A stretch of DNA of 64,000 bases, from NCBI GenBank assembly GCA_964410905.1, contig CAYPIR010000005.1:33938-97937 (forward strand), given 5' to 3'. This DNA comes from an uncultured bacterium. GTDB lineage: Bacteria > Omnitrophota > Omnitrophia > Omnitrophales > Aquincolibacteriaceae. Numbering within the stretch: position 1 is the stretch's first letter; each line of letters opens with the position of its first letter. The notes under the pieces were generated by a model that saw only the letters and a program-made list of their open reading frames with translations, was not told the origin of the DNA and searched no databases. Position numbers and translations under genes: made by a program. Below, piece by piece: positions 17,648-62,009 of the stretch.

Positions 17648-18892
17648 TTAGGCGCGAAAGCGTTTCATCGCGACACAAGCGTTATGTCCGCCAAACCCAA
17701 GCGAGTTAGAAAGAGTAAAATCTACTTTAGCGGTTTGAGCGACATTAGGAACATAATTAAGAGCGCAATCGGGGTCAGGAGTTTTGTAGTTTATGGTTGG
17801 CGGAACAATTTGATCTCGAATCGCGAGAGCGCAAACAGCGCCTTCAACCGCGCCGGCAGCGCCCAATAAATGTCCCGTCATTGATTTTGTGGAACTTATA
17901 AGGATTTTGCGTGCCACATCTTCGCCTAGCGCTAACTTTATGGCAAGAGTTTCTCCTTTATCATTAAGCGAAGTCGAAGTCCCATGCGCGTTAATATAAG
18001 AAACATCTTCTGGTTTCGCGCCAGCGTCTTTTAGAGCATTAATCATACAACGCGACGCTCCAGCTCCCGTGGGATCTGGCGCGGTAATATGGCTCGCGTC
18101 TGATGTCATTCCGTATCCAGCCATTTCAGCATAAATCTTCGCGCCGCGTTTTTTAGCATGTTCTAATTCTTCTAAAATAAGAACAGCGGCTCCCTCACCC
18201 ATCACAAATCCGTTTCTTGTTTTATCAAATGGTCGGGACGCGGTTTCCGGCGATTCATTGTTAGTGCTAAGAGCGTGCATAGCGTCAAATCCGCCAAAAC
18301 CAAGTTGAGTAATGCAAGACTCCGTTCCGCCCGTAAACATCACGTCAGCATCGCCGCGTTGTATAATCTTAAAAGCATCGCCAAGTGCGTTCGACCCCGT
18401 AGCGCACGCCGTTGCAACGCAAGAATTAGGACCTTTTAAGCCCAAAGCAATTGAAATCGCACCCGGCGCCATATTAACAATCAGCATTGGGATAAGAAAC
18501 GGAGAAACACGATGCCCTCCTTTTTCAATGGCTACTTTGTGCTGCTCTTCAATTACGCGAAGTCCGCCGATACCTGAACCAACCAAAACGCCAACGCGGT
18601 ATGGGTCTTCTTTTGTAATATCAAACTTGGCATCTTCTGCCGCCATTTTCGCGCAAGCAATTCCAAATTGAACAAAGCGGTCGGTTTTGCGAACTTCTTT
18701 AGGGTGGGATAAATATTTGACTGGATCGAAGCCTTTTACTTCTGCGGAGACTTTAGAATCAAACGGCGTCGGGTCAATTTGTGTTAGAAGCCCCGTTCCG
18801 CTTTTTCCTTTTAAAAAACTCTGCCAAGTTTCTTCTGTCGTATTGGCAACAGGAGTAATCATTCCGATGCCAGTAATAACAACGCGCCGCAT
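17648..18892 (-). CDS. fabF: Beta-ketoacyl-ACP synthase II
   Basis: 414 aa. Begins RRVVITGIGMITP. Active-site Cys/His/His regions are present. Sits directly downstream of acpP. Confidence 0.95.
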   Translation of the reverse strand: MRRVVITGIGMITPVANTTEETWQSFLKGKSGTGLLTQIDPTPFDSKVSAEVKGFDPVKYLSHPKEVRKTDRFVQFGIACAKMAAEDAKFDITKEDPYRVGVLVGSGIGGLRVIEEQHKVAIEKGGHRVSPFLIPMLIVNMAPGAISIALGLKGPNSCVATACATGSNALGDAFKIIQRGDADVMFTGGTESCITQLGFGGFDAMHALSTNNESPETASRPFDKTRNGFVMGEGAAVLILEELEHAKKRGAKIYAEMAGYGMTSDASHITAPDPTGAGASRCMINALKDAGAKPEDVSYINAHGTSTSLNDKGETLAIKLALGEDVARKILISSTKSMTGHLLGAAGAVEGAVCALAIRDQIVPPTINYKTPDPDCALNYVPNVAQTAKVDFTLSNSLGFGGHNACVAMKRFRA

Positions 18893-18944
18893 AGTAAAAA
18901 AATCCTCGAATCAATAATTTATGAAGTAAATTAAAATGAAAGAA

Positions 18945-18965
18945 CGAGCCGTTACTTCTGGCTCG
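18945..18965 (-). terminator. Hairpin overlapping the acpP stop codon; possible partial terminator/attenuator between acpP and fabF
   Basis: CGAGCC-gttacttct-GGCTCG forms a 6-bp stem. On the minus strand it is followed by a weak T-run (ttctttcatttta). acpP-fabF intergenic attenuation is known in other bacteria. Confidence 0.3.
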
Positions 18966-19191
18966 CCTTTTCTTCTACATACTTAACGGCATCGCCGACA
19001 GTTTTGAGTTTTTCCGCGTCTTCATCTGGAATTTCCGCGCCAAACTCTTCTTCAAACGCCATAACTAATTCAACTGTATCAAGAGAATCCGCGCCAAGAT
19101 CATCCACAAAGGACGCTTCCGGAACGACTTCTTCGGGTTTTACGCCAAGTTGCTCAACAATAATTTCGGTGATTTTTTCTTGAACGCTCAT
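18952..19191 (-). CDS. acpP: Acyl carrier protein
   Basis: 79 aa. The phosphopantetheine motif [19 protein letters not shown] is present. Confidence 0.95.
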
Positions 19192-19244
19192 TGATGTTTC
19201 TCCTGTTATTTATGGTTAATGACTGCTACTGCTTAATAAATGCA

Positions 19245-19988
19245 TCAGATTACAAGACCGCCATCTACAACTATTGTTTGTCCTGTAACATAAGCCGATG
19301 CGTCCGATGCCAAAAATACGGCAACATTTGCTACATCTTGAGGATCTCCGAGCCTCCCAAGTCCAATACGTTCTTTCATTTTTTCTATTATTTCCGGAGA
19401 TAATTTGTCGGTCATTTTGCTCTTGATAAATCCCGGAGCAATGGCATTGGCGCGGATATTTCGTTTTGCTAACTCTTTCGCTATTGTTTTTGTCAGAGCG
19501 ATCATCCCGCCTTTTGATGCAGAATAATTTGCTTGCCCAGCATTGCCAGCGACCCCCACGATTGACGCTATATTGATAATTGCACCACCTCGTTGTTTCA
19601 TCATTGGCCGAGCGCACGCTTTACCAAAAAGAAACGCGCTCTTAAGATTAATGGTGAGAACATCATCCCAATCTTGCTCTGACATTGTCGCAAGCAAACC
19701 ATCTTTTGTTATGCCCGCAACGTTGGCAAGTATATCGATGCGACCACAAGTGTCAAGAGCGATTTTGACGACTTGCTCGACTTCAGAAGCTGTCGCAACA
19801 TTAGCTTGCGTCAATACAACTTGAGGCGATCCTGCCGCTTTTACGAGTTGTTCCGTCTCTGTCAAAAACTCCGTTTTGATATCAGAAAGAACTAGTGAAG
19901 CGCCTTGTTTCGCGAACGAAACCGCTATTGACTGTCCAATTCCGCGTCCTGCGCCAGTAATAAGTGCAACCTTTCCTTTCAACACCAT
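19245..19988 (-). CDS. fabG: 3-oxoacyl-ACP reductase
   Basis: SDR fold with ALITGAGRGIGQ...NAG...YSASKGG. Has the fab cluster context. Confidence 0.9.
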   Translation of the reverse strand: MVLKGKVALITGAGRGIGQSIAVSFAKQGASLVLSDIKTEFLTETEQLVKAAGSPQVVLTQANVATASEVEQVVKIALDTCGRIDILANVAGITKDGLLATMSEQDWDDVLTINLKSAFLFGKACARPMMKQRGGAIINIASIVGVAGNAGQANYSASKGGMIALTKTIAKELAKRNIRANAIAPGFIKSKMTDKLSPEIIEKMKERIGLGRLGDPQDVANVAVFLASDASAYVTGQTIVVDGGLVI

Positions 19989-20004
19989 GATTATCTCCTT
20001 TTGG

Positions 20005-20946
20005 TTATGATTGCGATAAAACGGTTAAAGCATCAAGAGCCTTAAAATCCGAAATTGCTCCGATTGAAATCACTTCGAGATCGGGCTGGCATTTGCGAGC
20101 CAACCCTTTTAACACTTTTCCGGGACCAAGTTCCAAATATGTCGATATTCCAGTCTCTTTAGCGGAAGCAAGAGTTTCAACCCAGCGGACAGAGCTTGTT
20201 AATTGCCGCGCTAAAAGTTTGCGAATCTCATCCGGATTCGATTCGATTTTCGCCGTAACATTAGGAATAAAGATACACTCGGGAGCTTTAATAGGCGTAT
20301 TCGCTAACGCCTCTTCAAGTTTTGTTTTTGCGTCATTCATTAAAGAAGAATGAAAAGCGCCGCCGACTTTGAGCGGCATAGCGCGTTTCGCGCCTTTTGC
20401 AGTTGCCAATTGGCAAGCTTTTTCTATAGAAGAAACCGTTCCAGATAAAACCGTTTGATCCGGCGCATTAAGATTCGCGACTTCCGATCCGGACTCTTTT
20501 GCTATAGCCGTGCACTCTTCAAGCGATAACCCCATAATAAACGCCATTGTTCCAGGATTGTTTTTTGCCGCCGCGTCCATCGACTCAGCGCGAATTTGGA
20601 CTAATTTTAACGCGTCTTCAAACGAAATCGCATTTGATGCCGTAAGCGCGGTAAATTCTCCAAGACTCAACCCTGCGACAAAAGAAGGCTTTAAGTCAGA
20701 AATTTTTTCTCTGACAGACGCAAGCACGGCAAGACTTGTCACAAGAATGCCGGTTTGCGCGTATAAAGTTCGGGTAAGCTGTTCTTCTGTTCCGGAAAAA
20801 CAAATTTCACTAATGGAATAGCCTAAAATCTCATCCGCTTTTTGATAAATTTGCTTCGCGGCAGGACTTTGCTCAAAAAGATCTTTTCCCATGCCAACAA
20901 ATTGAGAACCTTGACCGGGAAATAAAAAGCCAATCTGTTTAGTCAT
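20005..20946 (-). CDS. fabD: Malonyl-CoA:ACP transacylase
   Basis: Motifs FLFPGQGSQFVGMG and GLSLGEF (active-site Ser). Confidence 0.9.
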   Translation of the reverse strand: MTKQIGFLFPGQGSQFVGMGKDLFEQSPAAKQIYQKADEILGYSISEICFSGTEEQLTRTLYAQTGILVTSLAVLASVREKISDLKPSFVAGLSLGEFTALTASNAISFEDALKLVQIRAESMDAAAKNNPGTMAFIMGLSLEECTAIAKESGSEVANLNAPDQTVLSGTVSSIEKACQLATAKGAKRAMPLKVGGAFHSSLMNDAKTKLEEALANTPIKAPECIFIPNVTAKIESNPDEIRKLLARQLTSSVRWVETLASAKETGISTYLELGPGKVLKGLARKCQPDLEVISIGAISDFKALDALTVLSQS

Positions 20947-20950
20947 TTAA

Positions 20951-21937
20951 TCACCATTTAATAAGGGTCGCGCCCCAAGTCAAACCGCCGCCGAAAGCGA
21001 CCAACACAACGTAATCTCCTTTTCGGACATTACCTGCTCGAACAGCTTCATATAACGCAACAATGGTTGACGCGCTGGACATATTTCCGTAGCGGTCAAC
21101 ATTTATAAAAATTTTTTTAGGGTCTATCTCAAGCCGCTCCGCGACCGCTTGAAGAATACGATTATTTGCTTGATGCGGGATAAGGCAGCCTATATCGCTT
21201 ACCGTAAGATTCTTTGCTTCCAAAACTTTATGAACAGCCTGCGTCATAGTTTTGACCGCCATTTTAAAAAGCTCAGGTCCTGCCATCTTTATAAAATGTT
21301 TACCCTCGGAAACAGTTTCCACACTCGGCGGTAATCTGGAACCTCCGGCTGGGATTTGAAGAATTTCGCTTTGCGTTCCATCAGAACCAATATAAGAACC
21401 AAGAATTTCTCTTTCACCTTTCGCGCGAGACACAATAACAACTCCCGCGCCGTCGCCGAAAAGAACACATGTAGAACGATCTTTCCAATTCACATAGCGC
21501 GTAATAGTTTCCGCCCCGGCAACAAGAACATTTTTATAGATGCCTGAACGAACAAAAGAGTCGGCAACGGAGAGCGCGTAGGCAAATCCCGAACAAGCGG
21601 CGGCTAAATCAAACGCGCCGCAGCGAGCGCTAAGTTTTGCTTGAAGATAACAGGCGGAAGAAGGGAACGCGCGGTCAGGGGTTGTTGTGGCAACTACTAT
21701 CAAATCAATATCATCAACGGTTAGTCCGGCATTTTTTATGGCTTCTTGCGCGGCAGGCAAAGCCAAATCGCTTGTAGCTTGCTCAGCCGCAGCTATATGA
21801 CGTTCCCTTATTCCCGTTCGTGTTCTTATCCACTCGTCCGAAGTTTCAACTATTTTTTCCAAATCAGCATTGGTTAAAACTTTTTCTGGAACATACACAC
21901 CAATTCCTGCTATTGCAGATTGATAAATTTCGTTCAT
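20951..21937 (-). CDS. fabH: Beta-ketoacyl-ACP synthase III
   Basis: 328 aa. Active-site Cys in ...AACSGFAYAL... and a C-terminal GGGLTWG. Confidence 0.9.
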   Translation of the reverse strand: MNEIYQSAIAGIGVYVPEKVLTNADLEKIVETSDEWIRTRTGIRERHIAAAEQATSDLALPAAQEAIKNAGLTVDDIDLIVVATTTPDRAFPSSACYLQAKLSARCGAFDLAAACSGFAYALSVADSFVRSGIYKNVLVAGAETITRYVNWKDRSTCVLFGDGAGVVIVSRAKGEREILGSYIGSDGTQSEILQIPAGGSRLPPSVETVSEGKHFIKMAGPELFKMAVKTMTQAVHKVLEAKNLTVSDIGCLIPHQANNRILQAVAERLEIDPKKIFINVDRYGNMSSASTIVALYEAVRAGNVRKGDYVVLVAFGGGLTWGATLIKW

Positions 21938-21972
21938 ATTTCCTTTAATTTGGAGTCTTTAAAACAATAGCC

Positions 21973-23022
21973 TTAAGAAGCGCTAGTTTTATGTTCTGTT
22001 GCGGTCGTTGACGCGGCGCCGTTTAAATATGGCGCGATTTCATCAACTATTTGTTCGTTGACTTTTGTCGTTACAAGCTCGCCCGCGACACGAATTGCGT
22101 TGCGAATCGCAAGCGGAGAAGAAATTCCATGGCTAATAATTACATTGCCGTTCACGCCAAGAAGCGGCGCTCCGCCCGCTTTTTCATAATCAGTTTCTTT
22201 TCTTAATGATGAAAGCACCGGTTTTAGAAACCAAGCTGCAATGGCCGCAAGCGGATTTTTCTTAAGTTCTCTGACAATCAATGAAACAGATGTTTCCAAA
22301 ACGCTTTCTATCATTTTAAGAACAACATTTCCAACAAAGCCGTCGCAAATAATGCAGTCGGCGCGCCCAGAAAAAAAATCACGACCTTCAATGTTGCCGA
22401 TAAAATTCAAATTAGAATCGCGGAGCAATTTATATGCTTCTTTTAAAACATCCGTGCCCTTTGTCTCTTCCTCGCCAATATTGAGAAGTCCGATTGCCGG
22501 GCGGCGGTTTTTTTTGAGAATACTTTTCGCAAAAACATCCGCCATCAAAGCGTATTGGAAAAGCTCATTAGCAGAAGGATTAAGATTCGCGCCCACATCA
22601 ACCGCGACTGACATTCCGTGAAGAGTGGGAAAAGATATAGCTATGCCGGGGCGTTTAATTCCGGGCAAAAGTCCGAGATTAAGAGTGGCAGCCGCAACCA
22701 TCGCGCCAGTATTCCCCGCCGAAACGGCCGCCACGCATTCTTTCTTTTTTAGAAGTTCAATACAAACGCCTATTGAGGAATCTTTCTTTTTACGCAAAGC
22801 AGAAACCGGCGAATCTTCCATGCCTATCACTTCGGTCGCTTCCTGCAAAACTATTTTTCCGCCAATAACCTTGTGCCTATTGAGTTCACTTTTAAGAACG
22901 GCGGTTTGCCCAACCAAAACGATTTCAAGATTTTCAAAATTGTTTGCCGCCAGCACCGCGCCTGCTACTACCGCCTTCGGAGCGTTGTCGCCGCCCATTC
23001 CGTCTAAAGCGATACGAATCAT
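21973..23022 (-). CDS. plsX: Phosphate acyltransferase PlsX, with a short low-complexity C-terminal tail
   Basis: Motifs IALDGMGGDNAP...GNTGA.. The position between rpmF and fabH is conserved. Confidence 0.9.
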   Translation of the reverse strand: MIRIALDGMGGDNAPKAVVAGAVLAANNFENLEIVLVGQTAVLKSELNRHKVIGGKIVLQEATEVIGMEDSPVSALRKKKDSSIGVCIELLKKKECVAAVSAGNTGAMVAAATLNLGLLPGIKRPGIAISFPTLHGMSVAVDVGANLNPSANELFQYALMADVFAKSILKKNRRPAIGLLNIGEEETKGTDVLKEAYKLLRDSNLNFIGNIEGRDFFSGRADCIICDGFVGNVVLKMIESVLETSVSLIVRELKKNPLAAIAAWFLKPVLSSLRKETDYEKAGGAPLLGVNGNVIISHGISSPLAIRNAIRVAGELVTTKVNEQIVDEIAPYLNGAASTTATEHKTSAS

Positions 23023-35814: not shown

Positions 35815-36927
35815 TTATTCCGATAAAACTTTTTGAACAAGGTCAAATGCGGCGTTAGGCTGCGCCAAGGTTTCAACCGCAATCTTTTTTCTGGCAAATT
35901 CTTGAGGATTATCAAAAATACTTTGAAGGATGGTTTTTATTTCTTCGGGACGTTTAAGAAAATAAGAAGCGTTGCGTTTTTTTAAAAGATTTGCATTGCG
36001 AGTTTCTTGTCCCGGTATTGGCGACATAATAACCATAGGAACACCTTTGGCTAACGCTTCGGAAGTTGTAGAGCCGCCGGACTTCGCGATCATAAGATCG
36101 CTTGCTTCCATAAGCTCAGGCATAAAATCCACAAACCCAAAAGTTTTCACGGGAAACGGATAAGTTTTCGCGTCCAAAATGGATTTAAGTTCTTTGTTAT
36201 TGGCACAAACTACAAAACACTGAATTTTATCAGCAAAACTTTTCAAGTTTTCTAAAATCGCTTCCTGCGGACCCAAGCCAAAACTCCCGCTTGTAAGAAG
36301 AACCGTGAAACGATCTTTACTAAAACCATACTTTTCCCGAAACTCCGCCTTTTTTTCTGTCGGAAAAAAATCTTTAAGTATCGGGATTCCTCCGGCTGCT
36401 ATTTTTTCACTAGGGACATGCCGATGAATGAGTTCGTCTTTTGTTTCGTGCGTCATAACCCAGTAAATATCTGTGCCGGGATTTACCCAAAATGTATGCG
36501 GATAAAAATCCGTAATCACCGTCCATAATTTCGACTTGATTAACCCTTTCAACTTCGCCCTACCCAATATTTCTGGAGGCAAGAAATGAGTCGAAATAAC
36601 AATGTCAGGCTGATGGCGGGCTATAGCCGCTAAAAGTTTTTTCGCGTGATGCGAATTGGTTAGTGAACGGATTGGTCTAAGTAAGTTATAAAGCCATTGC
36701 CAATCGAGTATTTCGTAGGACGCGCCCCAAACAGCAGCCGCGTGTCTAACCGCCCAATAATAAATTGGCGCGTAAGTTTTTTGAAATGTTGAGTCCACAT
36801 AATCAAGCGCGTTCAGCTGTCTAATCTCAAGATCGTCTCTGTTTTGTTCTTTAAAAGCCGCCTCAATGGCAAGCGCGATTTTTCTATGTCCTTCTCCAGC
36901 TGTCGCGTGAATAATATCAATTTTCAT
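35815..36927 (-). CDS. Glycosyltransferase, MGDG-synthase/UgtP-like (diacylglycerol glycosyltransferase family)
   Basis: 370 aa with a GT-B fold. The N-terminal G(E)GH motif is present in ...ATAGEGHRKIA and there is a C-terminal UDP-sugar binding region. Confidence 0.65.
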   Translation of the reverse strand: MKIDIIHATAGEGHRKIALAIEAAFKEQNRDDLEIRQLNALDYVDSTFQKTYAPIYYWAVRHAAAVWGASYEILDWQWLYNLLRPIRSLTNSHHAKKLLAAIARHQPDIVISTHFLPPEILGRAKLKGLIKSKLWTVITDFYPHTFWVNPGTDIYWVMTHETKDELIHRHVPSEKIAAGGIPILKDFFPTEKKAEFREKYGFSKDRFTVLLTSGSFGLGPQEAILENLKSFADKIQCFVVCANNKELKSILDAKTYPFPVKTFGFVDFMPELMEASDLMIAKSGGSTTSEALAKGVPMVIMSPIPGQETRNANLLKKRNASYFLKRPEEIKTILQSIFDNPQEFARKKIAVETLAQPNAAFDLVQKVLSE

Positions 36928-48347: not shown

Positions 48348-49712
48348 TTATTCCTTATAAACGCAAACACGGTTACGGCCTTCTTCTTTTGCTCGATACA
48401 TTGACACATCGGCTTTGCGAATAAGTTCGGCGGTGATTTTTTTAAATTGTTGTTCGGATTCTTGTATCATAAAGTCATCAAAAATCGCAATACCTTGGCT
48501 CACAGTTACTTTTGTTTTTACATTGTAAAAACTAAAACTGTGTCGGGCGATAGTTGAGCGGATACGTTCAGACACCTCTGAAGCATCGTCAATTTTTGTT
48601 TCCGGCATTATCACAACAAACTCTTCTCCGCCATAACGTCCTACTAAATCCATTTTACGGAGGCTTTGTTTGAGAAGATGTGCTACTTCTTTTATGGTCG
48701 CGTCACCGGCAATATGTCCGAAGTCGTCATTATATCTTTTGAAATGGTCGATGTCCAACATTAACACAGCAAGAGGGCGCTTAAAACGCAGACTTCGTCG
48801 AAGCTCTTCTTCAAAACGTTCCAAGAAATGTCTGCGCGTCCAAACTTGTGTAAGTTCATCAATAATAGCAAGTTCACGGACAGTTTCATAAAGACGAATT
48901 TTTTTAATTAAAAGAACTAAATAAGCACACAAAACTTCAACTTGCGCAAAATCTTCTTCCGCGATTCCCCGTATCGAAAAACTTGCCACTATGGATCCGT
49001 TGTCTTTTATGGGGAAACAGTAGGAATCATTTTTTTTAATTTGCGAATTGCTTTCCTTTAGAGAAGAAAACTGTTCGGTTTCCTCCTCAGAGAGAACACG
49101 CGTCTCAATCGAAACTCCATCGTTTTCCATAATATAAAACTTTGCTTGTTTTGCAGACGCGTCAAACTCTGACGGATACAAAATTATTTGCATTTCTTTA
49201 AACTGAAGATTAACTCGAATTTTTTTTAGGAGGAATTCTGAAAGAGTCAAAAAATCCATACATTCGCTAAAATCACGCGCTATCTCAAAAAGATTTACCA
49301 AACTGGAAACTTGTTCTTCGAGGTGACGCAAACTTTGCATTCTTACTTGATATTTAGCCTGAAAATCGTTAAGTTTTTTTTGGACTATTGCTTCTGAGTC
49401 CAAAACACGAAATTGCAATTTTTTCAACTCCCAGTGATACAACAAAAGAGCCGAGGCTATCCCGCTTTGAAGAAAGAAAAGTATCAAAATCCTAATTGCC
49501 GGCTGTTTATAAAAAAAGAATGAGTGCAATCCAACCCAGATTAGTCCGCTCAATGTAAAAAATATCCACGCTCTCTCTTTTAAAAAGTAATAAACCGGGA
49601 AAACGCAAATCGTCGACATTATGTAGTAATAAAGAGAAATTTCTTTTGAAATATAAACGGTAAGTAAAATGGAGGCTAAAAATGCAAAAAACGCTAGGAA
49701 GCGGCGGCGCAT
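48348..49712 (-). CDS. Membrane-anchored diguanylate cyclase (TM, sensory region, GGDEF)
   Basis: GGEEF active site RYGGEEF and DIDHFKRYND. The start is set at ATG 49712 (MRRRF...), preceded by GGGAGG. The track start at 49742 is a TTG. Confidence 0.8.
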   Translation of the reverse strand: MRRRFLAFFAFLASILLTVYISKEISLYYYIMSTICVFPVYYFLKERAWIFFTLSGLIWVGLHSFFFYKQPAIRILILFFLQSGIASALLLYHWELKKLQFRVLDSEAIVQKKLNDFQAKYQVRMQSLRHLEEQVSSLVNLFEIARDFSECMDFLTLSEFLLKKIRVNLQFKEMQIILYPSEFDASAKQAKFYIMENDGVSIETRVLSEEETEQFSSLKESNSQIKKNDSYCFPIKDNGSIVASFSIRGIAEEDFAQVEVLCAYLVLLIKKIRLYETVRELAIIDELTQVWTRRHFLERFEEELRRSLRFKRPLAVLMLDIDHFKRYNDDFGHIAGDATIKEVAHLLKQSLRKMDLVGRYGGEEFVVIMPETKIDDASEVSERIRSTIARHSFSFYNVKTKVTVSQGIAIFDDFMIQESEQQFKKITAELIRKADVSMYRAKEEGRNRVCVYKE

Positions 49713-51139
49713 ACTCGGTTCCTCCCTTTGCGTTTCGCGCAATATAGCGCCTTGTCGGCTTTTGATACCAGCTCTTCCGGATCCAACGTATCCGTTGGTA
49801 AATTTGAAACACCGATAGAGACTGTCATTTGAATACGTTCTCGGCGGACTTTAAAAGAAGTTTTTTCGACAGCCTCACGTATTTGCTCCGCGATTTTCAG
49901 AGCCTCTTCCCTCGATGTTTCCGGAAGCAAAATTGCGAATTCTTCTCCGCCATATCTGGTAAGCAACGCTCCACGCACCGTTTTCTTGAGAATCTCCGCG
50001 AATTGAACCAACATCAAATCGCCCGCCTGATGACCAAACTTATCGTTACAATCTTTAAAATGGTCAAGGTCGCACATAAAAAAAGAAAGATTCTTTTTAT
50101 TTGAAATCGCCCGCCGATGTTCTTCATTTAAGCGTTCATAAAAATATCTTCGTATAAAGAGCCCGGTCAACGCGTCTCGTATAGCTAGATCTTCCGTCTT
50201 TTCGTAAAGAATAGCGTTTGAGATAGCCGAAGAGGCAAGAGTAGCCAAAGCGTCTAAAAGTCTTAAATCGTCATGACTAAAAGCGTTCGCCCGCACGGAA
50301 TGAATGGCAAGCGTTCCGCTTACCCTGCCTTCGTAAAAAAGAGGCGCTGCAATCAAACTCCTAAAAGGCGATTTCTTTTCAACATCATCAAGGACAAATC
50401 TGAAATCCTGTTGGGTATCCATAACTATTAAACGTTTTCGATTTTTAATGCACCAAAAATCAAACAAATCTCCCTGCTTAGCGTTCCAATTTCCAACGGG
50501 ACGGTTACGGCGCTTCGCAACAACAGGAAGTTTTGAGTCATCGCCTCTAGCCCAAGTGATTTTGGCAAAATCGCCGCGAGATATAAAATCCATTGTCCTA
50601 TCTACCGTCTTCTGAATTAAATCCGCCCACGACAAACTAGCCGCCATTTCTTCCGCCAATTTTCTTAAATTGTAATAAGTGGAATATTTTTCAAAAAACG
50701 TGCTGATTCCCTCGCCTTTCGTTTTAAACGCGAGCGCTAAATCATTTATTTCATCTTCCGCTTTTTCTTGCCTGATCCCAATCAACGCGATTTGAGATTC
50801 AAAATAGCTTTCGATTCTATACAGCAAAAAAACCATCACTCCATATACCAAAAATACCCAAAGAAACGCCGTCACCTTGGTAATAGACACAATAAAAAAC
50901 ACCAACGGAATAAGCAAAGCGCCGGCGAACACATAAATTCCAAGCCATTTAAACCGCCACCACAAAGTAAACAAAGGCATGGAAAACGCGACGAGTAAAA
51001 TGGCTAGTCTGTCAAGCTGAACATCTGGAGAGACGGAAGTGCGAAGCTGGACTAAAGTAAAAATAACGAGATAAATTAAAAAAACAAGAGAGGCAATCCC
51101 TAATAAAAAAGCAATTTGACGGCGGGTTTGTGAGCCCAT
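49694..51139 (-). CDS. Membrane-anchored diguanylate cyclase (TM, GAF-like, GGDEF); paralog of the downstream gene
   Basis: Motifs RYGGEEF and DLDHFKDCND. The N-terminus has 5-6 TM segments. Confidence 0.8.
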   Translation of the reverse strand: MGSQTRRQIAFLLGIASLVFLIYLVIFTLVQLRTSVSPDVQLDRLAILLVAFSMPLFTLWWRFKWLGIYVFAGALLIPLVFFIVSITKVTAFLWVFLVYGVMVFLLYRIESYFESQIALIGIRQEKAEDEINDLALAFKTKGEGISTFFEKYSTYYNLRKLAEEMAASLSWADLIQKTVDRTMDFISRGDFAKITWARGDDSKLPVVAKRRNRPVGNWNAKQGDLFDFWCIKNRKRLIVMDTQQDFRFVLDDVEKKSPFRSLIAAPLFYEGRVSGTLAIHSVRANAFSHDDLRLLDALATLASSAISNAILYEKTEDLAIRDALTGLFIRRYFYERLNEEHRRAISNKKNLSFFMCDLDHFKDCNDKFGHQAGDLMLVQFAEILKKTVRGALLTRYGGEEFAILLPETSREEALKIAEQIREAVEKTSFKVRRERIQMTVSIGVSNLPTDTLDPEELVSKADKALYCAKRKGRNRVCAAAS

Positions 51140-52281: not shown

Positions 52282-53115
52282 TTATGAAAGATATTCGAGC
52301 AGAAGCCCAAGTTTTTCTTTTAATTTTTTACGCGAAACAACAATGTCCACCATTCCGTGATCAAGTAAAAACTCTGATGTTTGAAAGTTTGGCGGAAGTT
52401 TTTGCCGTATAGTTTGTTCGATAACACGCGGCCCGGCAAATCCTAAAAGTGCGCGAGGTTCGGCAATAATCACATCGCCAAGCGACGCAAAACTAGCCAT
52501 GACACCGCCCATTGTCGGATTGGTCAAAACGGAAATAAAAGAGTTCCCTTCATTTTGGAATCTAGCAAGCGCCACGGAAGTTTTTGCCATCTGCATAAGA
52601 CTTAACGCGCCTTCATACATACGAGCTCCGCCACCCGAACCCGAAATCACGATTAAAGGAAGTTTTTCTTCTTGAGCGTGTTCGATAATCCGCGTCAGCT
52701 TTTCACCAACAACCGAACCCATTGACCCCATAATAAACCGAGAGTCAGTTACGCCAAGCGCGCATCTCCTGCTCATAATTTTTGCGGTTCCGACAATACA
52801 AGCGTCTTTGAGTCCAGTCCGCTTCTGATCTTGCTTGATTTTTTCTCTATAGGCTTTAACAGCAGAAAACTTCAGAGGATCTTCTGAGGTGAGGTTGGCG
52901 AAAAGTTCAGAAAAAGTGTCTTTGTCCACGAGATGTTGGATACGCTCAGTCGCTCCCATAATAAAATGATACGAACATTTAGTACATACAAAGAAATTCT
53001 CATGAAGAGTTTTGTGGAACATCACATTTTGACAACTCGGACACTTTGTCCAAAGACCAGCGGGAATACTATTTTTACGAAGACCTTTTGTTATTGGGGC
53101 ATTTGTTTGCGGCAT
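52282..53115 (-). CDS. accD: Acetyl-CoA carboxylase carboxyltransferase beta subunit
   Basis: The N-terminal Zn ribbon CPSCQ...CTKC is followed by a carboxyltransferase fold. Confidence 0.9.
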   Translation of the reverse strand: MPQTNAPITKGLRKNSIPAGLWTKCPSCQNVMFHKTLHENFFVCTKCSYHFIMGATERIQHLVDKDTFSELFANLTSEDPLKFSAVKAYREKIKQDQKRTGLKDACIVGTAKIMSRRCALGVTDSRFIMGSMGSVVGEKLTRIIEHAQEEKLPLIVISGSGGGARMYEGALSLMQMAKTSVALARFQNEGNSFISVLTNPTMGGVMASFASLGDVIIAEPRALLGFAGPRVIEQTIRQKLPPNFQTSEFLLDHGMVDIVVSRKKLKEKLGLLLEYLS

Positions 53116-59010: not shown

Positions 59011-59283
59011 TTAAGCGTCTTCGTCAGCATCATCTCCGATTTTAATTTCTTCGTCATCTATAATGCATAAAAGCTCATCTCGTCCAACCGCTTCATCTTC
59101 ATCCACGCAAACTTCAGTCAAAACACCCGAAACAGGCGCGGTAACCAGAACCGAGACATCATCCGCGACAAGTTCCGCCAATTCATCGCCTTCTTCAACT
59201 TCATCGCCTTCTTCAAAAAACCAAGTTTTTACTACCGCCTCATCAGCATTTTTGGCAAACCCTTTAGCAAGGACTTCGAACAT
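59011..59283 (-). CDS. Small, highly acidic biotinyl/lipoyl-attachment-domain-like protein that lacks the modifiable lysine
   Basis: 90 aa, ATG preceded by AAGGAG. WFFEEGDEVEEGDELAELVADDVSVLVTAPVSGVLTEV aligns by eye to the AccB/E2 hybrid-motif hairpin (VGD.L..iEAMKm...I.AP.SG.V..I). The position of the modified Lys is occupied by Asp. Confidence 0.55.
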   Translation of the reverse strand: MFEVLAKGFAKNADEAVVKTWFFEEGDEVEEGDELAELVADDVSVLVTAPVSGVLTEVCVDEDEAVGRDELLCIIDDEEIKIGDDADEDA

Positions 59284-59304
59284 CGCCTGTATCTCCTTTA
59301 TTGG

Positions 59305-60219
59305 TTAAGTATTGTTTAGGTTATTTGATGAAAAGTTGGAACATTCTGAACTCTTAGATTTCCCAAGAACTGAAAATGACTCTCTCGCGTGATAAGAACT
59401 TCGGACATACGAACCCGCCTTCACGCCGCTGAAACCCATCGCCTTTAATTTTTTCGCAAGATCGTCAAATTTTTCTGGTGAAATATATTCTTGAACTTCG
59501 AGGCTTTGCGCGTTGGGCTGTAGGTATTGACCTAGCGTCAGCAAACTTACACCCACGGACAAAAGATGTCGCCCTGTTTCAAGCACCTCAGGAACAGTTT
59601 CGCCAAGACCCAGCATCAGTCCGCTTTTTGTAACGCATAACGGATTTAGGCGTTTCGCGATTTCCAGAACTTGAAGCGAGCGATAATAACCCGCTTGAGG
59701 CCGAGCCAAAGTCTGCAGTCTCTCAACCGTTTCCAGATTATGATTAAACACATTCACATTGGTGTCCGTAACTTTTTTCAAAAGTTCTTCGCGCGCGTGA
59801 AAATCGGGCGTCAAAACCTCAACTTCCGAATCTGGAATTTCACGCTTAATGGCACAAACCGTTCTGGCATAATGTCCCGCCCCTTCATCGGGCAAATCAT
59901 CACGCGTTACAGACGTTACAACCACATAACGCAATCCAAGTTCTTTTACGGCAAACGCCACGCGTTCCGGCTCGTCCGCTCTTAAATCTTCCGCTCGTCC
60001 GCTTGGAACAGCGCAAAATTTACAATGGCGAGTACAAATCCCGCCCAAAATCATAAATGTAGCGGTTTCCTTTGAATAACATTCGTGGCTATTTGGACAT
60101 CGTGCCGAGCGGCAAACCGTGTTGAGTTCGTATTTTTGCAAAATAGCGTGTGTTCTCTGGGAAGAATCTTTAGGGAGGGAACGCCTCAACCAGTCTGGAA
60201 ACCGTCTAAAATTCCGCAC
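59305..60219 (-). CDS. lipA: Lipoyl synthase (radical SAM), with a short C-terminal extension
   Basis: Motifs CPNSHEC...GICTRHCKFCAV (two Fe-S Cys clusters). The start is GTG, preceded by AGGAAA. Confidence 0.9.
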   Translation of the reverse strand: MRNFRRFPDWLRRSLPKDSSQRTHAILQKYELNTVCRSARCPNSHECYSKETATFMILGGICTRHCKFCAVPSGRAEDLRADEPERVAFAVKELGLRYVVVTSVTRDDLPDEGAGHYARTVCAIKREIPDSEVEVLTPDFHAREELLKKVTDTNVNVFNHNLETVERLQTLARPQAGYYRSLQVLEIAKRLNPLCVTKSGLMLGLGETVPEVLETGRHLLSVGVSLLTLGQYLQPNAQSLEVQEYISPEKFDDLAKKLKAMGFSGVKAGSYVRSSYHARESFSVLGKSKSSECSNFSSNNLNNT

Positions 60220-60272: not shown

Positions 60273-61844
60273 CTATAATTGCATGCTGTCTTTCCCGCGT
60301 TGAAAAGAGGTCCGCGGCAAGGATTTTTTATCCGTGTCCAATACCGCCGACTCACTGCCTAAAAACATAATTAGTTTTTGAAGCCCTTGTCTGACCGTAT
60401 CGACAATGCGAATCCACTCGCCAAGCTCGCGAGTCGCGGCCGCGGTTTTTCTATCCGCGCGGCTTTTATATCTGCGGTGTTCATCTTCTAATTTCGCGAG
60501 TCTGGATTCTTGGTCTGCCAGTTGCGCGTGGTATTCTTGCTTGATAGTCGCGCGCTCTTGAACAAGCTGCGCGTGCTCTTTTTTAACCGCCTCTGCCGCC
60601 TGCAATTTTTGCGCTAGTTCCAGTATTTGTTTTTCAAAAAGCGATAACGCGGCATCACGAGATTTTAATGACTCTTCCATGCCGCCAAGAGTTTTTTCCA
60701 ATCCCGACGCTTTTAAAATCCATTCTTTTTCTCTTAAGCTGACAGCGTCAAACTCGCGTTTGGCATTCTCAATATTCTTTTCTAGTTCTTGAATTCTCGT
60801 TTCAAACTTCGCCTTTTGCTCGTCAAAGCCTCGCGTCTCTTGCTCTAGTTGCAAAATCCTAGATTGACGGCTTTCGTTTTCGCGAGTTGCACCGGCAAAA
60901 TTTTCTTCTACGGATTTAAGTTTGTTCTTCAATTCATTTTTTTCAAAATCGGAATTCTTGATTGCTTCTTCCAATTCAGAAATACGTTTGCGAGACGCAT
61001 CGTCGTCTCCCGCATACGCCGCATGTTCACTAACCGCATTTTCACGCTGTGTTAATTCCTGTATTTTGTTTGAAAGCGCTTCTTTTTCTCGATTCAAATT
61101 TACGATTGCTTCATCTTTCTCATAAACCGTTTTTTCAAGTTGTGAAAGTTTTCCATTCAAAAAATCAATCTTATATTGCCACTCAGCTTCGCTTGCATTC
61201 TTGGCTTCTTCCGCCGCGGATACGGGCAAATCGACAGGAGAGCTTCCCGCAAACTCCTCATTCTCTGTTTTGTTTATTTGAACATCTTCCGCTTCTGTTT
61301 CAATGTCCTCGTCCTTTTTCGACGAAGCAAGATTTTTGCCTTCTTGAAAAAGTTTTAGTTTCTCATTGAGTTCTCGCGTCCTGCGCTCCCACTCATCATC
61401 TTTTTCAATAGTATTCAAGATATTCTCAGCCGGCGGGACAATGGCTTCTTTGCTTTCATTGTTTTCTTTAACAAGTTCGGCAATCGGCTCGACGGGTAAA
61501 TTTTCTTTTATTTTCTTTTTAAAGAATATCGCGAGATCAGGTCTTTCAGGCCAAACTATCTGAAAACAATTTTTCTTTATCATTTGGTGATTAGTAATTT
61601 CCACCACAACCCCGCTCTCCTGAAAAAACTCCTTAACTTGTTTGGCTTCCTCAGAAAAAACATTATCAAGCAGCAAAAGAGGCATATTAGACAACACTTG
61701 CGCGGCATCTTCTGATTCGAGATCAAAATTTTCTTCTAAACTTTTAATCACATTTTTTTTTGTTTTTGATGGAACAGACTGAAAAATAACCGCCCAATCT
61801 GCTTGATTTTGACCCGGAAGATTTTGCGTAGGATTTGAAGCCAT
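60273..61844 (-). CDS. Hypothetical ~520-aa coiled-coil protein whose N-terminal domain resembles the ribosomal L7/L12 C-terminal domain
   Basis: The start is set at ATG 61844 (MASNP...), after GAGGTG. Residues ~30-85 (VIKSLEENFDLESEDAAQVLSNMP...EEAKQVKEFFQESGVVVEI) resemble the L7/L12 CTD. The remaining ~400 aa are heptad-rich with E/K/Q/L and fit SMC-like coiled coil. Confidence 0.5.
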   Translation of the reverse strand: MASNPTQNLPGQNQADWAVIFQSVPSKTKKNVIKSLEENFDLESEDAAQVLSNMPLLLLDNVFSEEAKQVKEFFQESGVVVEITNHQMIKKNCFQIVWPERPDLAIFFKKKIKENLPVEPIAELVKENNESKEAIVPPAENILNTIEKDDEWERRTRELNEKLKLFQEGKNLASSKKDEDIETEAEDVQINKTENEEFAGSSPVDLPVSAAEEAKNASEAEWQYKIDFLNGKLSQLEKTVYEKDEAIVNLNREKEALSNKIQELTQRENAVSEHAAYAGDDDASRKRISELEEAIKNSDFEKNELKNKLKSVEENFAGATRENESRQSRILQLEQETRGFDEQKAKFETRIQELEKNIENAKREFDAVSLREKEWILKASGLEKTLGGMEESLKSRDAALSLFEKQILELAQKLQAAEAVKKEHAQLVQERATIKQEYHAQLADQESRLAKLEDEHRRYKSRADRKTAAATRELGEWIRIVDTVRQGLQKLIMFLGSESAVLDTDKKSLPRTSFQRGKDSMQL

Positions 61845-62009
61845 TGTTTCACCTCTCATTAGAAATAAGCCATTTCTCCTTTAGATTTCGCACATCAATT
61901 GACGGCTAAAATCAAAAAGAATTTAGAAAAGTTCGATACGCCTTGCTATTATATACAGACTATTTCTTTTTTCTAGCAAACTCTCAATAAAATTATTCTT
62001 AAAAATTCG

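What the first reader, a model, noticed from the sequence alone, without database searches (positions are those of the whole stretch)
59011..60219. Lysine-less biotinyl/lipoyl-like mini-protein encoded immediately downstream of lipoyl synthase
The 90-aa acidic protein has its own strong RBS and aligns to the hybrid-motif hairpin of lipoyl/biotinyl carrier domains. An Asp sits where the modified Lys should be (…LAELVADDVSVLV…). LipA acts on octanoylated lipoyl domains. A carrier-like domain that cannot be octanoylated or lipoylated, encoded 22 nt from lipA, could be a decoy, a regulator of LipA, a scaffold, or a highly divergent carrier using another residue. I do not recognise it as a described family.
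Basis: partly seen in the sequence, partly recalled or inferred. Interest (0 to 1): 0.6.

Follow-up and report, generated by a model that had tools for sequence, protein, structure and literature searches.

The report
Lysine-less lipoyl domain beside lipoyl synthase
A small, very acidic protein encoded right after lipoyl synthase has the fold of a lipoate-carrying domain but has lost the lysine that carries lipoate; it is conserved across a whole order of Omnitrophota bacteria and descends from a genuine lysine-bearing carrier, so it is probably a non-modifiable "pseudo-carrier" that still works with the lipoylation machinery.

Summary
Window 59011-59283 (-) encodes a 90-aa acidic protein. It starts 21 nt after lipA (59305-60219, -) and has its own AAGGAG ribosome-binding site. 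It passes Pfam Biotin_lipoyl (E 6e-14) and models confidently as a lipoyl domain (pLDDT 87.6; 1.3 Å rmsd to a human E2 lipoyl domain). Asp42 aligns without gaps to the lipoyl-lysine.

This is a family trait. All 107 database homologues and all 37 genome loci carry D/E (rarely Q, N, G, A or V) at that site. No alignment column has a conserved lysine, and three members have no lysine in the core. Median dN/dS is 0.087. An intact lipA lies directly upstream in 36 of 37 loci.

The family belongs to order Omnitrophales. The six carrier genomes that could be matched to published tables all encode GcvH, so LipA has an ordinary substrate. Other Omnitrophota have Lpd-LipB-LipA-LD operons whose 76-79-aa domain in the same position keeps the canonical TDKA lysine.

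It is therefore a derived, non-lipoylatable pseudo-carrier under selection. A LipA-linked accessory or decoy role, analogous to plant BADC, is the best inference but is untested. It is a new variant of a known kind, and I found no description of it.

The parts
59011..59283 (-). Gene for the 90-aa lysine-less lipoyl-domain-like protein (pseudo-carrier)
   Evidence: ORF. Pfam PF00364 at E 6.1e-14. AF2 pLDDT 87.6. Foldseek matches to lipoyl domains: 3crk_C at 1.3 A rmsd over 75 columns, also 2l5t and 1ghj. Median dN/dS of 0.087 across 137 pairs.
59155..59166 (-). Codons for the hairpin tip, residues 40-43 (Ala-Asp-Asp-Val). Asp42 (59158-59160) takes the place of the lipoyl-lysine. The family consensus is T-E-[ED]-[GS].
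   Evidence: Gapless profile alignment to solved lipoyl domains. Column counts are E52 D51 Q2 A1 G1 in 107 sequences and D26 E8 N2 G1 V1 in 38 locus sequences. Seven Lys-bearing orthologues align TDKA to the same columns.
59014..59058 (-). Acidic C-terminal tail, residues 76-90 (DDEEIKIGDDADEDA). It is predicted to be disordered and is variable in length across the family, up to about 45 residues of D/E.
   Evidence: Alignments. pLDDT is below 50 for residues 83-87. Mean net charge of family proteins is -27.9 for the full length and -16.6 for the core.
59293..59298 (-). Shine-Dalgarno sequence AAGGAG, 9 nt upstream of the mini-gene ATG and inside the 21-nt lipA/mini spacer
   Evidence: Read directly from the sequence.
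59305..60219 (-). lipA, lipoyl synthase, with all catalytic motifs intact (CRSARCPNSHEC, CTRHCKFC, RSSY)
   Evidence: NCBIfam TIGR00510 at 331.8 bits, cut-off 310.25, and NF004019 at 365 bits. The motifs are present in the window and in all 33 locus LipAs not truncated by a contig end.

Best explanation
SHOWN. The 90-aa protein is a real, strongly constrained member of the lipoyl-domain fold that cannot be lipoylated on the canonical site. An acidic residue replaces the lysine at the hairpin tip, and no other lysine is conserved. It defines a family found in class Omnitrophia, order Omnitrophales (Candidatus Omnitrophota). Its gene lies directly downstream of an intact lipA, often 0-30 nt away or overlapping it. 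In other Omnitrophota lineages, including a Gorgyraia genome, the same position is occupied by a 76-79-aa stand-alone lipoyl domain with the canonical TDKA lysine, inside an Lpd-LipB-(LipA)-LD module. The lysine-less protein is therefore a derived orthologue of a genuine small lipoyl carrier. Genomes that carry it also encode GcvH and the other glycine-cleavage proteins, and the window carries a type II fatty-acid synthesis operon. LipA therefore has a conventional substrate and an octanoyl source.

INFERRED. Having lost its cofactor site, the protein kept the surface by which lipoyl domains dock on the enzymes that recognise them. The best candidate partner is LipA, with which it is co-transcribed and probably translationally coupled. 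It would act as a non-substrate partner of LipA. It could be a competitive pseudo-substrate that tunes access of octanoyl-GcvH to LipA, as lysine-less BADC proteins do for BCCP in plant acetyl-CoA carboxylase. Or it could be a stabilising or adaptor subunit. LipA/LIAS binds its acidic carrier through a basic N-terminal belt, and the pseudo-carrier is even more acidic than true carriers. The direction of the effect, inhibition or help, is not known.
For: Fold and lysine loss:
- Pfam PF00364 at E 6.1e-14.
- Gapless alignment of D42 to the lipoyl-lysine of solved E2 domains.
- AF2 pLDDT 87.6 and Foldseek to lipoyl domains at 1.3-2.2 A rmsd.

Family-wide trait:
- The K-site is E52/D51/Q2/A1/G1 in 107 proteins.
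- The most lysine-rich column holds lysine in 55 of 107 sequences.
- Three members have no core lysine.
- Among the 38 locus sequences, L035 and L040/L043 share no lysine position.

Selection: median dN/dS 0.087 and maximum 0.37 over 137 pairs.

Linkage:
- lipA is immediately upstream in 36 of 37 Omnitrophota loci, with overlapping or abutting stop and start in L036, L038 and L043.
- lipA is also upstream of the divergent representatives P0096, P0118 and P0108.
- No terminator lies between the genes.
- LipA motifs are intact in 33 of 33 untruncated copies.

Origin:
- P0161 and the domains of L055, L056, L059, L060, L062 and L065 are 76-79 aa, carry TDKA and sit in Lpd-LipB-(LipA)-LD modules.
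- In L060 and L062 the Lys-bearing domain is followed by the same 'HEANR..LPPYLF' aminotransferase that follows the Lys-less domain in L033, L034, L038 and L043.

Ordinary substrate present:
- Table S5 of PMC10066038 lists gcvH (K02437) in genomes #169, #170, #175, #194, #195 and #202. These are L017, L013, L026, L031, L033 and L039.
- The window carries plsX-fabH-fabD-fabG-fabF and accD.

Docking plausibility: the LIAS-H-protein interface consists of charge-charge contacts, with a negative carrier and a positive LIAS N-terminal belt (PMC12246082).

Precedent: BADC proteins are inactive BCCP homologues that lack the biotinylation site and inhibit ACCase (10.1101/634550, PMC12706156).
Against: - No physical or functional link to LipA is shown. 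The evidence is gene order alone.
- That gene order sits inside a larger block (YjeF_N / lipA / mini / aminotransferase / murI / queC / queE / rph / rdgB) that is syntenic across the order. Adjacency could therefore be inherited rather than functional.
- In L033 the mini-gene persists without an adjacent lipA.
- A charge comparison gave no sign of co-adaptation. The LipA N-terminal belt is +4.6 in Lys-less loci and +3.2 in Lys-bearing loci, and the LipA core is more acidic in Lys-less loci (-3.4 against +4.2).
- Whether Omnitrophales genomes encode LipB, LipM or LplA could not be established. All seven LipB contexts examined were Lys-bearing modules.
Confidence: 0.45

Rival explanations
1. The protein has a new function unrelated to LipA. 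After losing its lysine, the acidic barrel-sandwich domain was recruited as a binding module for some other partner, such as Lpd or the glycine-cleavage proteins, or as a generic polyanionic mimic. Its position after lipA is simply inherited from the ancestral Lpd-LipB-LipA-LD operon.
For: The whole gene block around it is syntenic across the order, so adjacency carries little weight on its own. L033 keeps the gene without an adjacent lipA. There is no charge co-variation with LipA. The family gained features absent from Lys-bearing orthologues: WFFEEGD, DE[DG][DE], an invariant C73, a core charge of -13 to -19, and a poly-D/E tail. These features suggest a changed interaction surface.
Against: lipB and lpd left the neighbourhood while the lipA-mini pair stayed intact in 36 of 37 loci, with very short or overlapping junctions. 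The aminotransferase downstream is variable while lipA upstream is not. The only known binders of lipoyl domains are lipoate-pathway and lipoate-dependent enzymes.
Confidence: 0.3
2. It is still a cofactor carrier, modified on a residue other than the canonical lysine. Candidates are the invariant Cys73 (thioester), the acidic hairpin tip, or the N-terminus.
For: Cys73 is invariant in 107 sequences, and the tip is acidic in 103 of 107. The gene stays next to lipA.
Against: LipA chemistry is known only on octanoyl-lysine amides. The tip residue is not fixed: it reads D/E/Q/A/G, plus N or V in genome loci. No lysine is conserved, and some members have none in the core. From memory, the human E2p lipoyl domain carries a Cys at the aligned position ('PLCIIVE') in the last strand. 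This was not checked against a retrieved sequence, and the burial of C73 in the model was not measured. Lys-bearing orthologues have Ala at that position.
Confidence: 0.05
3. It is a BADC-like decoy for the biotin system rather than the lipoate system. It would be a lysine-less biotinyl-type domain that modulates acetyl-CoA carboxylase, whose accD is 6 kb away.
For: Foldseek also retrieves BCCP and biotinyl domains with similar scores. accD lies at 52282-53115. BADC is a precedent.
Against: Sequence profiles favour E2 lipoyl domains by many orders of magnitude. SucB and acetoin-E2 score 1e-12 to 1e-10, while BCCP models score 1e-3 to 7e-3. The Lys-bearing orthologues carry the lipoyl-type TDKA motif, not the biotinyl MKM motif, and sit with LipB, LipA and Lpd. 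accB and accC are not adjacent.
Confidence: 0.05
4. It is a decaying relic of a lipoyl carrier with no function.
For: The defining lysine is lost.
Against: Median dN/dS is 0.087. The family has 12 invariant and 19 nearly invariant columns over 107 sequences down to 39% identity. The reading frame is intact in all 37 genome loci. A strong Shine-Dalgarno sequence is present.
Confidence: 0.02

Closest known systems
Lipoyl domains of 2-oxoacid dehydrogenase E2 subunits (Pfam PF00364; e.g. E. coli SucB 1pmr, human E2p L2 3crk)
   Same: Same barrel-sandwich hybrid fold, at 1.3-2.2 A rmsd. Same length. Same structural motifs: W..xGDxV..GDxLxE, then the hairpin, then PxxGxLxE. The alignment is gapless.
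   Different: The lipoyl-lysine is replaced by Asp or Glu throughout the family. It is a stand-alone 88-130-aa protein with no catalytic or E3-binding domain. It is far more acidic, with a core net charge of about -17, and has a poly-D/E tail.
Stand-alone 76-79-aa lipoyl carriers of other Omnitrophota, in Lpd-LipB-(LipA)-LD modules (L049, L055-L065; found here, not described in the literature I searched)
   Same: Same size. Same genomic position after lipA, and in L060/L062 before the same aminotransferase. They are 38-45% identical and align without gaps.
   Different: They keep the TDKA lysine, are co-located with lipB and lpd, are less acidic (-5 to -14), lack the acidic tail, and have Ala instead of Cys73. 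One such genome, #85 in class Gorgyraia, has lpd but no gcvH, gcvT or gcvP.
Plant BADC proteins (biotin attachment domain-containing), which are BCCP homologues lacking the biotinyl lysine
   Same: The same logic applies: a carrier-domain paralogue or orthologue that lost its modifiable lysine, stays under selection, and acts on the enzyme complex that normally uses the true carrier (10.1101/634550, PMC12706156).
   Different: BADC derives from the biotin carrier, not the lipoate carrier, and is eukaryotic and plastidial. Its inhibitory binding is experimentally shown. Nothing has been shown experimentally for the protein here. The two arose independently.
GcvH / H-protein, and GcvH-like LbpA lipoate-binding proteins of the sHdr sulfur-oxidation system
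   Same: They are small free-standing lipoate carriers that serve as LipA or LipS substrates and sit in operons with lipoate-assembly genes (PMC6067878, PMC10332631).
   Different: They belong to a different sub-family (PF01597; E 0.12 here, below cut-off). They are about 130 aa and always carry the lysine.

Membership tests
Biotin/lipoyl attachment domain (Pfam PF00364, barrel-sandwich hybrid fold) | Profile match above the curated gathering score | tested here: met
   52 bits against a cut-off of 22.1, E 6.1e-14. A profile search against PDB sequences finds 25 lipoyl or biotinyl chains, best E 2.5e-20.
Biotin/lipoyl attachment domain (Pfam PF00364, barrel-sandwich hybrid fold) | Flattened beta-barrel fold with a protruding beta-hairpin | tested here: met
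   AF2 on a 107-sequence alignment gives pLDDT 87.6, with 65 residues above 90. Foldseek gives TM 0.70-0.78 and rmsd 1.3-2.2 A to 3crk_C, 2l5t, 1ghj and 2dnc. A first model from 28 close homologues was poor (pLDDT 41.7).
Functional lipoyl carrier (lipoyl domain proper) | Lysine at the tip of the hairpin (the [ED]-T-D-K-A motif) that receives octanoate or lipoate | tested here: not met
   Asp42 occupies the position. The position holds 0 lysines in 107 database sequences and 0 in 38 locus sequences. No other conserved lysine exists, and three members lack any core lysine.
Functional lipoyl carrier (lipoyl domain proper) | Covalent lipoyl or octanoyl modification in vivo | not testable with these tools
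   This needs mass spectrometry of the expressed protein.
Biotinyl domain / BCCP | (A/V)-M-K-M biotinylation motif and best match to BCCP models | tested here: not met
   There is no MKM motif. BCCP models in NCBIfam score E 1e-3 to 7e-3, far below their cut-offs and well below the E2 lipoyl-domain matches of 6.5e-12.
Glycine cleavage H-protein (PF01597) | Profile match above the gathering score | tested here: not met
   12.7 bits against a cut-off of 22.2, E 0.12.
Pseudo-carrier / decoy of the BADC type (functional class, not a homologous family) | Carrier-domain homologue that lacks the modifiable lysine yet is under purifying selection | tested here: met
   Lysine loss. Median dN/dS of 0.087.
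Pseudo-carrier / decoy of the BADC type (functional class, not a homologous family) | Binds the enzyme that uses the true carrier and alters its activity | not testable with these tools
   Only gene adjacency to lipA is available. No complex model or assay was possible.
Lipoyl synthase LipA (the upstream neighbour) | Equivalog-level profile match plus the CX4CX5C auxiliary-cluster motif, the CX3CX2C radical-SAM motif and the RSSY motif | tested here: met
   TIGR00510 at 331.8 bits, cut-off 310.25. The motifs CRSARCPNSHEC, CTRHCKFC and RSSY are present in the window and in 33 of 33 untruncated orthologues.

The most novel reading that the evidence does not exclude
The lysine-less domain is a dedicated, stoichiometric partner of LipA. 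This would be a new class of radical-SAM accessory subunit derived from the enzyme's own former substrate. It would gate the substrate channel or protect the sacrificial auxiliary [4Fe-4S] cluster, or recruit cluster-repair factors. LipA regulation in Omnitrophales would then work by substrate mimicry. A corollary is that the Lys-bearing ancestor in Gorgyraia (an Lpd-LipB-LipA-LD module in a genome without any glycine-cleavage gene) would be a free-standing lipoyl redox carrier of unknown function.
Probability: 0.2. Interest if true: 0.8.

Novelty: new variant of a known kind. Interest (0 to 1): 0.58.

Why it matters
Lipoyl domains are defined by one lysine. Natural, conserved lysine-less versions have not, as far as I could find, been described for the lipoate system. 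The only well-studied parallel is BADC in the plant biotin system.

This case is a whole bacterial order that keeps such a protein under strong selection, encoded next to and probably translationally coupled to lipoyl synthase. A clear evolutionary series leads to it from a functional carrier. This offers three things:
- a natural probe of how LipA recognises carrier proteins independently of the octanoyl-lysine;
- a candidate first protein-level regulator or accessory factor of a lipoyl synthase;
- a warning for annotation, since these proteins are currently labelled 'E2 component' or 'biotin/lipoyl-containing protein'.

The sister Lpd-LipB-LipA-LD module is also worth study. It occurs in a genome that lacks all glycine-cleavage genes, which points to an undescribed minimal lipoyl-protein system.

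Tried and rejected
1. The first AF2 run, on 28 close homologues, gave an unusable model (pLDDT 41.7). It was repeated with 107 diverse members.
2. An Fe-S or disulfide role for two cysteines was considered. C59 is Tyr or Phe in half the family, so only C73 is invariant. From memory, a Cys sits at the same aligned position in the human E2p lipoyl domain. Rejected.
3. A lysine shifted to K7, K11, K19 or K68 was considered. None is conserved (at most 55 of 107), and L035 shares no lysine position with L040/L043. Rejected.
4. The idea that LipA has no substrate in these genomes was considered after all seven LipB look-ups turned out to be Lys-bearing modules. It was rejected because Table S5 of PMC10066038 shows gcvH, gcvT and gcvP in six carrier genomes.
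No Omnitrophota locus gave a hit. This says only that these genes are not nearby.
6. Charge co-variation between LipA and the domain was examined. It was not supportive.
7. Literature searches for Omnitrophota with lipoyl or lipoate, and for lysine-less lipoyl domains, found nothing relevant.
8. The afdb50 fold library was unavailable.
9. Whether Omnitrophales encode an octanoyl or lipoyl transferase could not be settled. The stored supplement was truncated, and the look-up and scan quotas were exhausted.
Full report
**1. What is in the sequence**

Two adjacent ORFs lie on the minus strand. lipA runs 59305..60219 (304 aa). A 90-aa ORF runs 59011..59283. They are separated by 21 nt, which contain an AAGGAG motif ending 9 nt before the ATG. 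No promoter-like or terminator-like site lies between them.

The upstream gene is an orthodox lipoyl synthase. It scores 331.8 bits against TIGR00510, above the 310.25 cut-off. It carries the auxiliary-cluster motif CX4CX5C, the radical-SAM motif CX3CX2C and the RSSY motif.

The small protein has 30 acidic and 5 basic residues. It matches Pfam Biotin_lipoyl at E 6.1e-14, well above the gathering score. It does not reach the GCV_H cut-off. In NCBIfam its best partial matches are the N-terminal lipoyl domains of SucB and other E2 proteins, at E 1e-12 to 1e-8. BCCP models score E 1e-3 to 7e-3.

**2. Is the lysine really missing?**

A profile of the family aligns without any gap to solved E2 lipoyl domains. 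'atED' sits on 'sTDK' or 'eTDK', so Asp42 takes the place of the lipoyl-lysine.

A first AF2 model from 28 close homologues was poor (pLDDT 41.7). A second model from 107 diverse homologues is confident (pLDDT 87.6; only the acidic tail is disordered). Foldseek superposes it on lipoyl domains: 3crk_C at 1.3 Å over 75 columns, and also 2l5t, 1ghj and 2dnc.

Both were tested, and neither applies.

**3. It is a family, not an accident**

Two database searches returned 28 and then 253 proteins, with 120 of the 253 listed. They are 87-131 aa long.

In an alignment of 107 of them:
- The lysine position reads E52, D51, Q2, A1, G1.
- The tip motif T-E-[ED]-[GS] is itself conserved.
- The column richest in lysine holds lysine in only 55 of 107 sequences.
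- Three members (P0234, P0247, P0268) have no lysine in the 77-residue core.

A scan of one genome per species found 37 loci. Those with organism names are all Candidatus Omnitrophota. Their proteins give the same picture, and L035 shares no lysine position with L040/L043.

Pairwise Nei-Gojobori dN/dS over 137 pairs with 0.1 < dS < 1.5 has a median of 0.087 and a maximum of 0.37. The gene is therefore under strong purifying selection and is not a decaying relic.

**4. Linkage to lipA**

lipA is the immediate upstream neighbour in 36 of 37 loci. In L036, L038 and L043 the stop and start overlap or abut. The downstream neighbour varies: a class I/II aminotransferase of one type, one of another type, or murI directly.

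Divergent representatives from the 50%-identity library (P0096, P0118, P0108) also follow a lipA or a lipA fragment. All 33 LipA copies not cut by contig ends keep the three motifs.

There is a caveat. The whole block (YjeF_N - lipA - mini - aminotransferase - murI - queC - queE - rph - rdgB) is syntenic. L033 keeps the mini-gene without an adjacent lipA.

**5. Where it came from**

In the exhaustive profile search, the only short protein with a lysine among the top 150 was P0161. It is 79 aa and contains '...WHFEEGD...EMATDKAVF...'. It lies in an operon: Lpd-like flavoprotein - LipB - LipA - LD.

A search with that LipB returned proteins that NCBI names as Omnitrophota/Omnitrophica LipB. Every context I could look up (L055, L056-58, L059, L060-61, L062-64, L065) has the same module: aconitase L/S - Iso_dh - Mdh - Lpd - LipB - (LipA) - 76-79-aa LD. 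All seven of those small domains carry TDKA. They align without gaps to the lysine-less family at 38-45% identity.

In L060 and L062 the Lys-bearing domain is followed by an aminotransferase beginning 'MHEANR.KRLPPYLF'. The same enzyme follows the Lys-less domain in L033, L034, L038 and L043. The two kinds of domain therefore occupy the same genomic position. I read the lysine-less protein as a derived orthologue of a real small lipoyl carrier.

P0161 and L062 are intermediate in composition. They are acidic ('FEEGD' in P0161, 'IEEGD' in L062) but still carry the lysine. Core net charge runs from -5 or -6 (L055, L056, L059) through -12 and -14 (L060, L049) to -13 to -19 in the lysine-less family.

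**6. Does LipA still have a normal job in these genomes?**

Yes, by published annotation. The supplementary tables of Seymour et al. 2023 (PMC10066038) place six lysine-less loci in class Omnitrophia, order Omnitrophales. Three are in Aquincolibacteriaceae and three in Taenariiviventaceae:

| Genome | WGS prefix | Locus |
|---|---|---|
| #169 | MHFU01 | L017 |
| #170 | PLLJ01 | L013 |
| #175 | CAIJDY01 | L026 |
| #194 | MHFC01 | L031 |
| #195 | JAMWDC01 | L033 |
| #202 | SICL01 | L039 |

Table S5 of that paper lists gcvH (K02437) in all six. It lists gcvT and gcvP in five of them; #169, a 75%-complete genome, lacks both. It lists lpd (K00382) in five; #202 lacks it.

The window itself carries plsX-fabH-fabD-fabG-fabF and accD. 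An octanoyl-ACP source is therefore plausible.

The one Lys-bearing genome I could map is #85 (GCA_023818895.1, L055), in class Gorgyraia and 94.5% complete. It has lpd but no gcvH, gcvT or gcvP.

On the few genomes I could match, the pattern is complementary:
- Where the small domain is the only visible lipoyl protein, it keeps its lysine.
- Where GcvH is present, it has lost its lysine.

This rests on seven genomes and needs a full census. I could not establish whether Omnitrophales encode LipB, LipM or LplA (quotas exhausted).

**7. How it most likely works**

Shown: the fold, the lysine loss, the selection, the coupling to lipA, the descent from a Lys-bearing carrier, and the coexistence with GcvH.

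Inferred: the protein kept the docking surface of a lipoyl domain and acts as a non-substrate partner of an enzyme that recognises lipoyl domains. LipA is the best candidate.

The human LIAS-H-protein structure shows that carrier recognition is largely electrostatic. The carrier is negative, and a positive N-terminal belt of LIAS wraps around it (PMC12246082). The window LipA N-terminus (MRNFRRFPDWLRRSLPK...) is basic, and the pseudo-carrier is hyper-acidic.

The closest functional precedent is plant BADC. BADC proteins are BCCP homologues that lack the biotinylation site and inhibit ACCase.

I cannot say whether the Omnitrophales protein inhibits, stabilises or adapts LipA. A simple charge co-variation test did not support co-adaptation.

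I put 0.45 on a LipA-linked pseudo-carrier role. I put 0.3 on a lysine-independent role with another partner, and small probabilities on the remaining rivals.

**8. Comparison with what is known, and novelty**

By sequence and fold it belongs to the lipoyl-domain superfamily. It fails the defining functional feature of a lipoyl carrier, the lysine, so it should not be annotated as an E2 component or as a 'biotin/lipoyl-containing' protein. Sources currently give it those names.

No specific Pfam or NCBIfam model covers it, and none of the papers I could search describes it. I rate it a new variant of a known kind: a lipoate-system counterpart of the BADC idea, with an unusually clear evolutionary trail.

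Noticed in passing
L055:8640-11733; also L049, L056-L065 (other Omnitrophota, e.g. class Gorgyraia GCA_023818895.1): A conserved module of Lpd-like flavoprotein (CLNRGC redox motif) - LipB - (LipA) - stand-alone 76-79-aa lipoyl domain with TDKA. It follows aconitase L/S, Iso_dh and Mdh genes. In the one genome I could map (#85 of PMC10066038, 94.5% complete), lpd is present but gcvH, gcvT and gcvP are absent. This suggests a minimal free-standing lipoyl-protein/Lpd system of unknown function.
   Followed up: partly
window 60273-61859 (-): A 528-aa protein lies directly upstream of lipA. It has an N-terminal match to the ribosomal bL12 C-terminal domain (PF00542, 26.9 bits, just above cut-off) followed by a long coiled-coil region. 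A 526-aa gene with no Pfam hit lies upstream of lipA in L001, separated from it by a YjeF_N gene.
   Followed up: no
window 17648-23022 (-) and 52282-53115 (-): A type II fatty-acid synthesis cluster (plsX, fabH, fabD, fabG, then a gap where acpP would be expected, then fabF), plus accD. The organism can therefore probably make octanoyl-ACP for endogenous lipoylation.
   Followed up: partly
window 48348-51139 (-): Two tandem GGDEF diguanylate-cyclase genes (464 and 481 aa). The second has a GAF domain. Their reading frames overlap by about 50 nt.
   Followed up: no
window 35815-36927 (-): An MGDG-synthase-like glycosyltransferase. In the Lys-bearing loci the homologous type of gene sits immediately after the small lipoyl domain (L055, L056, L059, L065), which hints at an ancestral neighbourhood that was later split.
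   Followed up: no
L062:5001-5931 (also L063, L064): A variant module in which the Lys-bearing small lipoyl domain follows LipB directly, overlapping it by about 30 nt, with no lipA between them. The small carrier is therefore tied to the lipoylation module as a whole, not only to LipA.
   Followed up: partly
L054:341-928: The ORF upstream of the divergent family member P0108 has an unrelated N-terminal 140 aa fused to the last ~45 residues of LipA (…GFSEVYSGPYVRSSYHAGE…). It is either a chimeric assembly on a 1.5-kb contig or a truncated lipA.
   Followed up: no
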